64,000 nucleotides of DNA from Candidatus Binatia bacterium (GTDB taxonomy: Bacteria > Desulfobacterota > Binatia > Bin18). Below the pieces are notes generated by a model. The model did not search any database. It had not been told where the DNA came from and saw only the letters and a program-made list of their open reading frames with translations. A program made the translations under genes and the position numbers. Where the stretch lies: assembly GCA_965231775.1 (NCBI GenBank), contig OZ246888.1, positions 785,757 to 849,756 of the forward strand, in the 5' to 3' direction. This document shows, in pieces, positions 31,522-33,062 of the stretch (position 1 is its first letter; each line of letters opens with the position of its first letter).

Positions 31522-31599
31522 CTACGCCTTATACCCGAGCGCGTTCAGGTAGGCTTGCACGCTTGATACCAGCCCCATATAGAGCGCGTCGCAAATCAG
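31522..31599 (-). pseudogene. Displaced, diverged copy of the last 26 codons of pdxJ
   Basis: 78 bp, ~12 mismatches to 32325-32402; LICDALYMGLVSSVQAYLNALGYKA* versus LICDALSMGLLASVKAYLNALGYTA*. Confidence 0.92.
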
Positions 31600-32006
31600 T
31601 CGAGAAAGCTCTTTTCTTTCAGCGCTGGGAAGACGGAGGCGATTCGCTCGAAGTCTCTGTCGTGGTGCAGCAAGGTCGTCTTGGACTGGATGGCGCATGC
31701 CGCAATCAAACAGTCCGCGGTCGAGCGCACGGTGACACCGCGTTGCCGGCAATCCAGGTAGATGCGGGCGGCAGAGGTGTGACCCGCGGTCATGTCGCTG
31801 AATGCATAAAATTGTTGCCCACTGAAGTAGCTTCGCAGTTGATCAAAAGATGCTGCGTCGCGTGCACCCTGGAGAATTTCCATATAGATCAGGTGGGTAA
31901 TGCAGACGGCGATGGGGTTCGACAGCAGATCTCGCAAGAATTCGACTTGCTGGCAATCTCGGCCCCGGATGTAATCGACCCACACGGAGGTATCTACCAG
32001 ATACAT
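31596..32006 (-). CDS. vapC: VapC-like PIN domain toxin
   Basis: LVDTSVW, YMEILQG, TADCLIAA, HHDRDF; its TGA stop lies within the pdxJ copy. Confidence 0.92.
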   Translation of the reverse strand: MYLVDTSVWVDYIRGRDCQQVEFLRDLLSNPIAVCITHLIYMEILQGARDAASFDQLRSYFSGQQFYAFSDMTAGHTSAARIYLDCRQRGVTVRSTADCLIAACAIQSKTTLLHHDRDFERIASVFPALKEKSFLD

Positions 32007-32012
32007 GCCGCG

Positions 32013-32216
32013 TCAGGCTCCTGCGGCGCGCAATTCCTTATGGTCATACTCCAGGTCGAGGAGATTCGAACCCTCAAGGTCCCGCAGGTCGAGGCGCTTT
32101 CGATGGGTTACGAATTCCTTCAGCGCTTGGTGGACTAGCTCCCTCTTGGTCTTTATCCGGCTCAATTCCTGCGCCTCCCGGACAAGTTCGGCATCAAGCT
32201 CGATATTGGTTCGCAT
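32013..32216 (-). CDS. vapB: VapB-family antitoxin
   Basis: MRTNIELDAELV.EA......KTKRELVHQALKEFV; GAGG RBS; TACAC...GTGTA inverted repeat upstream. Confidence 0.9.
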   Translation of the reverse strand: MRTNIELDAELVREAQELSRIKTKRELVHQALKEFVTHRKRLDLRDLEGSNLLDLEYDHKELRAAGA

Positions 32217-32324
32217 TTATTACACCTCTTAATGTGTATTTTTATGCGTATTCATATCAGGTGCGGCGTGTCAAGCTACTGAAGACGGTTCCCTGGTAGC
32301 GGTGTCGGTCGGTCCCACCGCTAT

Positions 32325-33062
32325 TTACGCCGTATACCCGAGTGCGTTCAGATAGGCTTTTACGCTTGCTAGCAGGCCCATGGAGAGTGCGTCGCAAATC
32401 AGGGCGTGGCCGATGGACACTTCGAGCAAACCGGGTAAATGCTCCACCAGGTAGGGCAGATTGTCCAGGTTGAGATCGTGTCCCGCATTCAGACCCAGGC
32501 CGGCTGCTTGCGCCGCCCGGGCGGCGGTGTGAAACGACGCATAGACTCGGTCCTGCTCGGCACTGCCGAAGAGACGGGCGTAGCGTTCCGTGTAGAGTTC
32601 GATCCGGTCGGCGCCGACCCCTTTTGCGCGTCTCACCTGGTCGCTGTCCGGGTCGAGAAAAAGACTGGTCCGTATGCCGTTGTCGTGTAAACGCTGCAAG
32701 ACCTGACCGAGCCAGGTGGTATCGCCGCTGAGGTCCCAGCCGGCGTTTGAGGTGAGCACGTCCGGCGGGTCGGGCACCAGGGTACACTGGGTCGGTCGTA
32801 CCTGGCAGACCAAGTCCAGAAACTCGGTCGAAGGATAGCCCTCGATATTGAATTCAATGCTGCTGTGGTCTGCGAGCAGGGCGGCCAGGTCTCTCACGTC
32901 CTGATAGCGAATATGGCGACCGTCCGGGCGTGGATGCACGGTGATGCCGTGGCAGCCGGCGTCGATACAGGTGTGGGCGGCCCGAACGACACTCGGCTGG
33001 TCACCGCCCCGGGCGTTGCGCAGGGTAGCGATTTTATTGACATTGACGCTGAGTTTGATCAT
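32325..33062 (-). CDS. pdxJ: Pyridoxine 5'-phosphate synthase
   Basis: LSVNVNKIATLRNARG, GITVHPRPD.RHI, NAGHDL, EVSIGHALI. Confidence 0.96.
   Translation of the reverse strand: MIKLSVNVNKIATLRNARGGDQPSVVRAAHTCIDAGCHGITVHPRPDGRHIRYQDVRDLAALLADHSSIEFNIEGYPSTEFLDLVCQVRPTQCTLVPDPPDVLTSNAGWDLSGDTTWLGQVLQRLHDNGIRTSLFLDPDSDQVRRAKGVGADRIELYTERYARLFGSAEQDRVYASFHTAARAAQAAGLGLNAGHDLNLDNLPYLVEHLPGLLEVSIGHALICDALSMGLLASVKAYLNALGYTA

What the first reader, a model, noticed from the sequence alone, without database searches (positions are those of the whole stretch)
31522..32402. vapBC cassette at the pdxJ 3' end: second allele of the last 26 codons, which also supplies the vapC stop
Seen: 78-bp copies with ~12 mismatches encode LICDALSMGLLASVKAYLNALGYTA* (TAA, in pdxJ) and LICDALYMGLVSSVQAYLNALGYKA* (TAG, displaced). 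The vapC TGA (31596-31598) is formed by the CTG-ATT codons at the very start of the displaced copy, so the junction is seamless. The 803-bp unit holds only vapB, vapC and their promoter region. Inference: a minimal, recombinase-free addiction cassette that replaced the C-terminus of an essential vitamin B6 enzyme.
Basis: partly seen in the sequence, partly recalled or inferred. Interest (0 to 1): 0.7.

Follow-up and report, generated by a model that had tools for sequence, protein, structure and literature searches.

The report
vapBC islet with displaced pdxJ tail
A toxin-antitoxin gene pair sits just after the vitamin-B6 gene pdxJ of an uncultured soil bacterium (Binatia), followed by a leftover second copy of the gene's last 26 codons. 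Relatives indicate this is a recombination scar in a hypervariable defence/toxin-antitoxin hotspot, not a self-mobile 803-bp cassette.

Summary
Two 78-nt copies of the pdxJ 3' end (66/78 identical, 803 nt apart) bracket a pdxJ 3' inverted repeat, a promoter region, vapB and vapC. Short-read contigs from four samples span the whole structure without a difference.

Relatives (Candidatus Binatia, about 90% nt identity) show the history. Some have pdxJ directly followed by the MetX-like gene (empty hotspot). One has pdxJ followed by RHH-PIN, the exact empty site for the 803-bp unit. Two have pdxJ-vapBC with no displaced tail and with their own shared 3' flank. Several share the window's junction but carry different downstream cargo (MNT/HepT, SIR2, PIN pairs).

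vapC is 136 aa in nearly all homologues and ends in its own stop codon in all four contexts read that lack the tail. The "supplied" stop is therefore a 4-nt CTGA microhomology.

Best reading: one illegitimate join between a pdxJ-vapBC haplotype and another haplotype's pdxJ stacked the modules and displaced the resident tail. The structure was then inherited and reshuffled by homologous recombination.

I found no recombinase, circle, plasmid or phage copy, and no such repeats around related vapBC pairs elsewhere.

The closest analogue is C-terminal displacement in Rhs and T6SS effector-immunity arrays. Interest is moderate.

The parts
32325..33062 (-). pdxJ (pyridoxine 5'-phosphate synthase), 245 aa, intact
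   Evidence: PF03740 E 6e-86. It is 90% nt identical to the Binatia relatives L001 and L002.
32325..32402 (-). Tail A: the in-gene last 26 codons of pdxJ plus TAA
   Evidence: It differs by 1/66 from L103's in-gene tail and by 7-12/66 from all other tails.
32217..32324 (-). pdxJ 3' inverted repeat (UAGCGGUG...CACCGCUA) followed by the vapBC promoter/operator-like region (TTGACA box, ATACACAT repeats, RBS)
   Evidence: The inverted repeat also follows the pdxJ tail in L081 and L100, and follows the third partial tail in L096/L097/L099. The fold is not better than shuffles (z -0.5). The promoter-region motifs are conserved in vapBC pairs at other loci. The strict sigma-70 scan did not call it.
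32013..32216 (-). vapB antitoxin, 67 aa
   Evidence: PF09957, residues 1-47, E 4e-17.
31596..32006 (-). vapC PIN-domain toxin, 136 aa. The acidic residues D5, E43, D98 and D116 are present.
   Evidence: PF01850 and NCBIfam NF047959 at 144.6 bits, cutoff 80. Nearly all homologues are 136 aa.
31595..31599 (-). Junction: CTGA shared by the vapC end (GAC TGA) and pdxJ codons CTG ATT, a 4-nt microhomology
   Evidence: Compare window ...CTCGACTGATTTGCG with L081 ...CTCGGCTGAAGTACC and pdxJ ...CACGCCCTGATTTGCG.
31522..31599 (-). Tail B: displaced, non-functional copy of the pdxJ last 26 codons plus TAG
   Evidence: It is colinear with L002 6661-7485 through RHH-PIN. It is identical to L104's displaced tail and 2/66 from the in-gene tails of L100 and L096. 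Homologous relics in L099 and L114 carry an 11-nt deletion.
31167..31451 (-). RHH (CopG-type) antitoxin of the second module, with its own promoter-like site at 31486->31458
   Evidence: PF01402 and promoter scan. It is conserved in all junction-bearing relatives up to about 31112-31160.
30799..31170 (-). PIN toxin of the second module. It is truncated or replaced in L103, L110 and L114.
   Evidence: PF01850.
28627..30765 (-). Sulfatase-family membrane protein, hotspot cargo not found in any of the relatives' loci compared
   Evidence: PF00884. No blastn match in any relative's locus.
28535..28608 (-). Orphan 74-nt fragment of an RHH antitoxin gene, 85% identical to 31303-31376
27864..28515 (-). 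MntA/HepT (type VII TA) pair
   Evidence: NCBIfam NF047752 and NF047751, both below cutoff. Pfam NTP_transf_2 and HepT-like are listed for the orthologues in L086-L095.
26723..27730 (-). MetX-like alpha/beta hydrolase, the conserved far border of the hotspot
   Evidence: NF005757 at 460 bits. It directly follows pdxJ in L001 and L004.

Best explanation
The interval between pdxJ and the MetX-like hydrolase is a hypervariable hotspot in this Binatia clade. It holds alternative toxin-antitoxin, restriction-modification and SIR2 cargo. vapBC first sat behind pdxJ without any duplication, the state kept in L081 and L100. One recombination event then joined a pdxJ-vapBC haplotype to a second haplotype. 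The upstream side was homologous (pdxJ and beyond). The downstream side was an illegitimate join at the 4-nt microhomology CTGA, between the vapC stop and pdxJ codons 220-221 of the other haplotype. This is a homology-facilitated illegitimate (or topologically equivalent Campbell-type) recombination. The donor brought a complete pdxJ with its own tail (A). The recipient's last 26 codons (B) were pushed downstream together with its resident cargo. No dedicated recombinase is involved. The composite has since been inherited and repeatedly patched by ordinary homologous recombination among co-occurring strains. Shown here: the anatomy, the empty sites, the no-duplication haplotypes, the shared junction and the mosaicism. 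Inferred: the one-ended mechanism, and the idea that resident addictive modules favour additive over replacement recombination.
For: (1) Empty hotspot in L001 and L004. The exact empty site for the 803-nt unit is in L002, where window 31599->30776 aligns colinearly to L002 6661-7485 at 89%. (2) L081 and L100 have pdxJ, the inverted repeat and vapBC, then a shared flank AGTRCCGGATATTYATTCATCG... and no displaced tail. Their vapC stop is TGA or TAA. (3) vapC homologues are nearly all 136 aa. In L083 and L084, homology to other contexts ends exactly at their own TGA, so the stop is native and CTGA is microhomology. (4) The identical junction occurs in diverged lineages (flank dS 0.2-0.35) with different downstream cargo: L088 MNT/HepT, L097 RHH-PIN plus orf86-PIN145, L114 SIR2, and the window's sulfatase. 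This fits one origin followed by recombination. (5) Both tails look like functional alleles. Seven of the 12 A/B differences are at third positions, and B is 2/66 from the in-gene tails of L100 and L096. (6) Mosaicism: the window is about 99% L103-like in tail A plus inverted repeat and in the tail-B 3' half plus RHH, but about 99% L110/L097-like in the vapBC core. vapBC dS drops to 0.02-0.12 in some pairs while flanks stay at 0.2-0.4. (7) A second scar of the same type: a 34-nt pdxJ tail plus inverted repeat lies behind RHH-PIN in L096/L097/L099. (8) There are no repeats around related vapBC at other loci, no plasmid or phage match, and no integrase in the neighbourhood gene lists. (9) Alternative haplotypes co-occur in the same samples. 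(10) The mechanism class is documented experimentally and has been proposed for analogous arrays (PMC3240628, PMC5361080). Spread of TA islets by homologous recombination at flanking core genes has been proposed (PMC13617665).
Against: The direction of events is inferred from parsimony on about 10 haplotypes with heavy recombination. L081/L100 could instead be derived by loss of B, and L002 could be a product of A x B deletion rather than a never-occupied site. In the L088 lineage the two tails are nearly identical (2/66) and share lineage-specific bases, which needs gene conversion or an independent event at the same position. A join exactly at the stop codon is a narrow target for a random illegitimate event. 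No parental no-duplication haplotype with the window's TTT CTC GAC TGA ending was found. Nothing is known about competence, conjugation or end-joining in Binatia. The addiction argument is untested.
Confidence: 0.58

Rival explanations
1. One reading: an autonomous, recombinase-free 803-bp vapBC cassette carries a surrogate pdxJ tail as its attachment sequence. It inserts, possibly through a circle, into the pdxJ 3' end site-specifically, using a host or trans-acting recombinase.
For: Direct repeats bracket exactly one TA module. The same junction is seen in several lineages with different downstream DNA. In L088 the two tails are almost identical, as after a fresh insertion. Other TA modules also carry flanking gene-tail duplications.
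Against: L081 and L100 have the same vapBC at pdxJ with no second tail and with a shared native 3' flank. The three scars have no common core sequence: CTGATTT, AAGCC, and a crotonase tail. The inverted repeat following tail A is not vapBC-specific. vapBC relatives of 68-80% identity at other loci lack repeats. No recombinase is nearby. No skip or circle joint appears in four samples' contigs, although contigs cannot exclude rare forms. Recent exchange breakpoints lie inside the cassette, not at the repeats. There are no plasmid or phage copies.
Confidence: 0.12
2. The duplication arose in situ at the primary insertion. vapBC was copied or ligated into the pdxJ tail by template switching or by repair of a staggered break. 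This duplicated about 70 nt of the cell's own target, and the two copies then diverged.
For: The recurrent pattern is insert plus 34-185-nt flanking duplication. Examples are higBA at the crotonase gene (53 nt; empty site in L106-L108, in-gene copy native-like, displaced copy about 70% identical), RHH-PIN in L097 (34 nt), and a rhodanese-like gene at 62.5-63.9 kb (about 185 nt). The L088 tails differ by 2/66.
Against: The inverted repeat follows A, not B, so B is not followed by the sequence that follows the tail in the no-duplication haplotypes. L081 and L100 show vapBC at this site before any duplication. In the window the non-functional copy B has changed least: 2 unique changes against 7 in A, relative to L001 and L002. 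B matches functional alleles of other lineages, the opposite of decay after an in-situ duplication.
Confidence: 0.22
3. Assembly artefact: two strain variants of the pdxJ end were collapsed or chimerically joined.
For: This is a metagenome-derived genome, and multiple strains co-occur.
Against: Independent short-read contigs from four samples span both repeats with 0 differences. The same architecture is present in several independent long-read genomes and contigs: L088, L097, L103 and L110-L115.
Confidence: 0.01

Closest known systems
C-terminal displacement and orphan arrays in Rhs, CDI and T6SS effector-immunity loci (Jackson et al. 2009; Kirchberger et al. 2017, PMC5361080)
   Same: An incoming module enters at the 3' end of a conserved gene, anchored by upstream homology. 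The resident 3' end and its protective gene are shifted downstream and kept. Serial events build arrays separated by orphan 3' fragments. Homology-facilitated illegitimate recombination is the proposed mechanism. Here too, orphan antitoxin (RHH) is kept while its toxin is truncated in L103, L110 and L114.
   Different: The displaced gene end belongs to a housekeeping enzyme (pdxJ), not to a polymorphic toxin. The tail carries no toxic domain. The cargo is type II and type VII TA pairs and defence systems. The displaced tail has no evident function.
Homology-facilitated illegitimate recombination (de Vries & Wackernagel 2002; Prudhomme et al. 2002; Meier & Wackernagel 2003; E. coli conjugation, PMC3240628)
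   Same: One homologous anchor, one illegitimate joint at a few nucleotides of microhomology (CTGA here), and foreign DNA added next to the anchor.
   Different: The experimental cases are laboratory transformations or conjugations. From my own recollection they mostly delete recipient DNA, whereas here recipient DNA upstream of the anchor end is retained as a duplication. The process is inferred here, not observed.
MGE-free toxin-antitoxin islets between core genes (Acquisition and erosion of TA systems, Mol Biol Evol 2026, PMC13617665)
   Same: A tiny island contains only a TA pair, there is no mobile-element gene, and spread and allele exchange occur by homologous recombination at flanking core genes.
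   Different: A term search of that paper's main text found no mention of direct repeats, microhomology or illegitimate recombination. The Binatia locus preserves the junction scar and several stacking stages.
Integrase-mediated islands and cis-mobilizable elements (CIMEs) at gene or tRNA 3' ends
   Same: Direct repeats of a gene's 3' end flank the insert, the gene is reconstituted, and tandem accretion is possible.
   Different: There is no integrase, no conserved core shared by the different scars, the repeats are two natural alleles, and a no-repeat state exists at the same site.

Membership tests
VapBC type II toxin-antitoxin module | Toxin is a PIN-domain protein with the conserved acidic residues | tested here: met
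   PF01850 E 3e-15. NCBIfam VapC equivalog NF047959 at 144.6 bits, cutoff 80. D5, E43, D98 and D116 are visible in the sequence.
VapBC type II toxin-antitoxin module | Small antitoxin gene immediately upstream in the same operon | tested here: met
   VapB PF09957 E 4e-17. There is a 6-nt gap to vapC. The pair is conserved together in all contexts examined.
VapBC type II toxin-antitoxin module | Toxicity neutralised by the antitoxin; RNase activity | not testable with these tools
   This needs expression of vapC with and without vapB in a laboratory strain.
Site-specific integrative element (integrase island, CIME or IMEX type) | A recombinase encoded in the element, or a recognisable recombinase target core shared by its insertions | tested here: not met
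   There is no recombinase ORF in 26-36 kb of the window or in the relatives' gene lists. The three scars have unrelated junction sequences.
Site-specific integrative element (integrase island, CIME or IMEX type) | The element is always bounded by both att repeats wherever it is integrated | tested here: not met
   L081 and L100 carry the same vapBC at pdxJ with a single tail. L083, L084 and L085 have no flanking repeats.
Site-specific integrative element (integrase island, CIME or IMEX type) | Excised circular form or empty-site reads in the same population | tested here: inconclusive
   No 803-nt skip joint appears in the contigs of four runs. Only assembled contigs were available, and these hide rare forms.
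Homology-facilitated illegitimate recombination product | Uninterrupted homology on one side and a microhomology joint on the other | tested here: met
   The upstream side is colinear with all relatives. The downstream joint is CTGA, shared by the vapC end and pdxJ codons 220-221.
Homology-facilitated illegitimate recombination product | Both parental arrangements exist | tested here: met
   The left parent type is L081/L100 (pdxJ-vapBC, no duplication). The right parent types are L002 (pdxJ-RHH-PIN) and L001. No left parent with the window's exact vapC ending was found.
Homology-facilitated illegitimate recombination product | The event was observed, or DNA uptake or transfer capacity of the organism is known | not testable with these tools
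Rhs/T6SS-type C-terminal displacement array | Serial orphan 3' fragments of the same upstream gene separate successive modules | tested here: met
   The window has one displaced tail. L096, L097 and L099 have two: a full 78-nt tail and a 34-nt tail plus inverted repeat.
Rhs/T6SS-type C-terminal displacement array | The displaced 3' end encodes a variable toxic domain paired with an immunity gene | tested here: not met
   The displaced segment is the conserved C-terminus of PNP synthase (PF03740 covers residues 3-240). The resemblance is therefore in mechanism, not in family membership.

The most novel reading that the evidence does not exclude
Gene-tail displacement may be a general, recombinase-free way in which addictive modules (TA pairs) stack at core-gene 3' ends. 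A resident TA cannot be replaced without killing the recombinant, so only additive, one-ended recombinants survive. The displaced tail then serves as a portable right-hand homology arm. This lets the module be knocked in by ordinary homologous recombination in front of whatever another strain carries at that hotspot. Supporting hints are the 'fresh' allele-like state of the window's tail B, the same junction in front of many cargos, and the parallel higBA and RHH-PIN scars.
Probability: 0.3. Interest if true: 0.65.

Novelty: new variant of a known kind. Interest (0 to 1): 0.42.

Why it matters
How chromosomal toxin-antitoxin pairs move without any mobile-element machinery is still poorly documented. 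This locus preserves several stages: empty site, single occupant, stacked occupants with scars, and decaying relics. It therefore gives a concrete, testable route, namely one-ended homologous plus microhomology recombination between strains. It also links TA accretion to the C-terminal-displacement logic known from polymorphic toxin loci. For annotation, it warns that short in-frame copies of housekeeping gene ends next to TA genes are recombination scars, not att sites or small genes.

Tried and rejected
No genome-wide census of the repeat, of vapBC paralogues or of recombination genes was possible. Relatives came from the search for related loci and the look-up of encoding contigs instead.

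(2) I looked for a mosaic break in pdxJ upstream of 32402 against L001 and L002. None was clear, with about 90% identity throughout.

(3) I looked for flanking repeats around related vapBC pairs in L083, L084, L085 and L081 and found none.

(4) A JGI metagenome scan for the junction found only one contig, which was already known.

(5) Plasmid and phage DNA searches found no match.

(6) I tested the post-stop inverted repeat as a pdxJ terminator. It has an 8-bp stem, no U tract, and a fold no better than shuffles. The strict promoter scan did not call the vapBC promoter.

(7) I rejected tandem duplication followed by deletion. No relative shows two vapBC copies, and the non-functional copy has changed least.

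(8) I rejected the idea that tail A is foreign and cassette-borne in all lineages. In L097, L110 and L088 the in-gene tail is an ordinary allele, and only the window and L103 carry the divergent A.

(9) Two literature searches for TA cassettes flanked by duplicated gene ends returned nothing directly comparable.
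Full report
**Observation**

The minus strand of the window carries these genes:
- pdxJ (33062..32325; PF03740, E 6e-86)
- vapB (32216..32013; PF09957)
- vapC (32006..31596; PIN, NCBIfam VapC equivalog 144.6 bits against a cutoff of 80)

The last 78 nt of pdxJ (32402..32325, tail A) recur at 31599..31522 (tail B).
- The two copies are 66/78 identical and 803 nt apart.
- Seven of the 12 differences are at third codon positions, and both copies keep an open 26-codon frame.
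- The vapC stop (31598..31596) overlaps the first two codons (CTG ATT) of tail B.
- Within 5 kb spacing this is the second-longest direct repeat in the 64-kb window.

Logan contigs from four separate samples span 31106/31208-32699 with no difference, and one 8-kb contig spans 30700-33100. No joint that skips the 803 nt was seen.

**Organism and relatives**

A pdxJ-based scan of species-representative genomes found Candidatus Binatia MAGs at about 90% nt identity. These are L001 (OZ243979.1) and L002 (OZ219926.1, labelled Thermodesulfobacteriota). More distant relatives are L003 and L004.

**Haplotypes of the pdxJ to MetX-like-hydrolase interval**

| Loci | Arrangement after pdxJ |
|---|---|
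| L001, L004 | hydrolase after 15-150 nt (empty hotspot) |
| L002 | RHH-PIN, 3.2 kb of other DNA, hydrolase. No vapBC, one tail. |
| L081 | vapBC, orf105, DUF2806, hydrolase. No displaced tail. |
| L100-L102 | vapBC, N6_N4 methyltransferase plus ResIII/RE endonuclease genes. No displaced tail. |
| L086-L095 (includes a 5.18-Mb genome) | vapBC, displaced tail, MNT/HepT, hydrolase |
| L082, L096-L099, L113 | vapBC, tail, RHH-PIN, a third partial tail (34 nt plus the post-stop inverted repeat), orf86-PIN145, hydrolase |
| L103, L110-L112, L114, L115 | vapBC, tail, RHH, truncated PIN, then different cargo (orf86-PIN145, orf398, a SIR2_2 system) |
| Window | vapBC, tail, RHH-PIN, sulfatase-family gene, 74-nt RHH fragment, MNT/HepT, hydrolase |

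Three details matter:
- In L002, window 31599->30776 aligns colinearly to L002 6661-7485 at 89%. L002 is therefore the exact empty site for the 803-nt unit.
- L081 and L100 share the DNA after vapC (AGTRCCGGATATTYATTCATCG...).
- Contigs with a VapC identical to the window's, from only two samples, already differ in cargo. The region is thus a strain-level hotspot for TA and defence genes.

**Which tail is which**

Tail B is contiguous with the spacer and RHH-PIN exactly as the single pdxJ tail of L002 is.
- Over 68 nt, B matches L001 at 65 positions and L002 at 63. A matches each at 59.
- A has 7 unique substitutions and B has 2.
- Across 19 tails, the displaced copies do not form a clade. The window's B is 2/66 from the in-gene tails of L100 and L096, and identical to L104's displaced copy.
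- The window's A is shared only with L103 (1/66).
- L088's two tails differ by 2/66.
- The relics in L082, L096, L097 and L103 share relic-specific changes. Those in L099 and L114 carry an 11-nt deletion.

B is therefore a resident, formerly functional pdxJ allele that now decays in some lines. A is simply the pdxJ allele attached to vapBC in the window/L103 lineage.

**The junction**

Of 120 listed VapC homologues, nearly all are 136 aa. In contexts without a pdxJ copy, the gene ends at the same codon with its own stop:
- L081, L083 and L084 end GGC TGA.
- L100 ends GGC TAA.

In L083 and L084, similarity to the other contexts ends exactly at the stop. The TGA is therefore native to vapC. The overlap with pdxJ's CTG ATT is a 4-nt microhomology (CTGA) at an illegitimate joint, not a stop supplied by the target.

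The 8-bp inverted repeat after the pdxJ stop follows tail A. It also follows the single tails of L081 and L100, and the third partial tail of L096/L097/L099, where it sits in front of a different module. It therefore travels with the pdxJ tail, not with vapBC. It is not a convincing terminator.

**Mobility tests**

- Related vapBC pairs (68-80% VapC identity) lie at other loci (L083-L085) with no flanking repeats.
- The 881-nt region has no DNA match in the plasmid or phage collections.
- A JGI scan for the junction found one contig that was already known.
- No recombinase gene lies in the neighbourhood.

**Recombination**

Synonymous divergence of the flanking genes (upp, M20, pdxJ, hydrolase) is 0.16-0.44 between lineages.
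- For vapB and vapC it falls to 0.02-0.12 in some pairs (window-L097, L103-L100, L103-L097).
- It equals the flanks in other pairs (window-L088, window-L081). This points to recent allelic exchange rather than a generally slow gene.
- A 60-nt profile shows the window is about 99% L103-like in tail A plus inverted repeat, and in the tail-B 3' half, spacer and RHH. It is about 99% L110/L097-like in the vapBC core, 32222-31743.
- Recent breakpoints therefore lie inside the cassette, not at the repeats.

**Explanation**

The simplest history has four steps:
1. vapBC first lay after pdxJ without duplication, as in L081 and L100.
2. A recombination event anchored in the homologous pdxJ/upstream region joined the vapC end to codon 220 of another haplotype's pdxJ at CTGA.
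3. This added the donor's pdxJ tail and vapBC in front of the recipient's tail and cargo.
4. Descent, gene conversion and homologous recombination then distributed and patched the structure.

This is the signature of homology-facilitated illegitimate recombination, or of a Campbell-type insertion of a circularised fragment, which is topologically equivalent. The process is known experimentally (PMC3240628 and references in PMC5361080).

The same logic has been proposed for T6SS effector-immunity arrays and for Rhs C-terminal displacement (PMC5361080). There, the resident protective gene is kept and orphan 3' ends accumulate. Here the parallel is an orphan RHH antitoxin kept next to a truncated PIN toxin in L103, L110 and L114, and serial pdxJ tail fragments in L097.

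Spread of MGE-free TA islets by homologous recombination at flanking core genes has been proposed for Photorhabdus (PMC13617665). It is my inference that addiction by resident TA modules selects for additive rather than replacement recombinants.

**Rivals**

| Rival | Main evidence against | Confidence |
|---|---|---|
| Autonomous site-specific 803-bp cassette | The no-duplication haplotypes, the lack of a shared core among scars, no recombinase, and no circle evidence. Rare circles cannot be excluded from contig data. | about 0.12 |
| In-situ target duplication at a primary insertion (template switch or staggered break) | The inverted repeat follows A only. B is the less-changed, allele-like copy. 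vapBC was present at the site without duplication. | about 0.22 |
| Assembly artefact | Independent contigs and independent genomes show the same structure. | excluded |

The in-situ model does gain some support from the recurrence of insert-plus-duplication structures and from L088's near-identical tails.

**Parallel cases checked**

The higBA pair at 21411-22143 is flanked by a 53-nt duplication of the crotonase 3' end.
- L106-L108 are the empty site, with the crotonase stop 28 nt from the next gene.
- The in-gene copy is native-like, and the displaced copy is about 70% identical.

A 74-nt RHH fragment (28535-28608) lies before MNT. A direct repeat of about 185 nt at 95% identity brackets a rhodanese-like gene at 62.5-63.9 kb. 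Insert-plus-flanking-duplication scars are thus recurrent in this genome. Whether they share one mechanism is open.

**Verdict**

The unit is best read as a recombination scar in a hypervariable TA/defence hotspot, not as a self-mobile cassette that supplies its own stop and surrogate gene end.

This is a new variant of a known kind: C-terminal displacement or HFIR-type stacking, here at a housekeeping gene with TA cargo. Interest is moderate at 0.42.

Noticed in passing
window 28535-28608 vs 31303-31376: A 74-nt orphan fragment of an RHH antitoxin gene (85% identical to the intact RHH gene) lies between the sulfatase-family gene and the MNT/HepT pair, in frame with the MNT ORF. Homology to L088's MNT region starts at 28548, inside the fragment's end, so this is probably another illegitimate junction.
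   Followed up: partly
window 21358-21410 and 22144-22196 (insert 21411-22143): An antisense higBA pair is flanked by a 53-nt duplication of the crotonase 3' end. L106-L108 show the empty site. The in-gene copy is native-like and the displaced copy is about 70% identical.
   Followed up: partly
L096/L097/L099 about 4780-4862; L113 6291-6362: A third, partial pdxJ tail (34 nt plus stop plus the post-stop inverted repeat) lies after RHH-PIN and a VapB-like fragment (..LSIDDDLPIAVKEIAQRES..), and before an orf86-PIN145 module. The RHH-PIN module is thus itself bracketed by a pdxJ-tail duplication.
   Followed up: partly
L100-L102, L114, L110-L112, L115: The same hotspot carries an N6_N4 methyltransferase plus ResIII/RE endonuclease pair, a SIR2_2-containing two-gene system, or a 398-aa ORF in strains whose VapC is identical or nearly identical to the window's. 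L115 also has a DEAD/ResIII helicase gene inserted upstream of pdxJ.
   Followed up: no
window 62523-62705 and 63737-63921: A direct repeat of about 185 nt at 95-96% identity (an upstream region plus the first 16 codons, MAYKISIGIDWQGKLD, of a plus-strand ORF) brackets a 345-aa rhodanese-like gene on the minus strand. This is another insert-plus-duplication structure, with non-TA cargo.
   Followed up: no
window 30706-31135 (runs X3, X4): A low-depth 1119-nt contig (depth 10-17 against 128-180 for the main strain) matches only 30706-30778 and 31075-31135, with different DNA between. A second hotspot haplotype therefore co-occurs in the same samples.
   Followed up: no
L103 about 4330-4430; L110 about 5895; L114 about 5836: In several relatives the PIN toxin next to RHH is cut after about 15-20 codons and replaced by other cargo, while the RHH antitoxin is kept as an orphan.
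   Followed up: partly
window 32342-32344 (pdxJ codon 226): The window's pdxJ has Ser (TCC) where every other tail examined, in-gene or displaced, has Tyr (TAC/TAT). The functional consequence is unknown.
   Followed up: no
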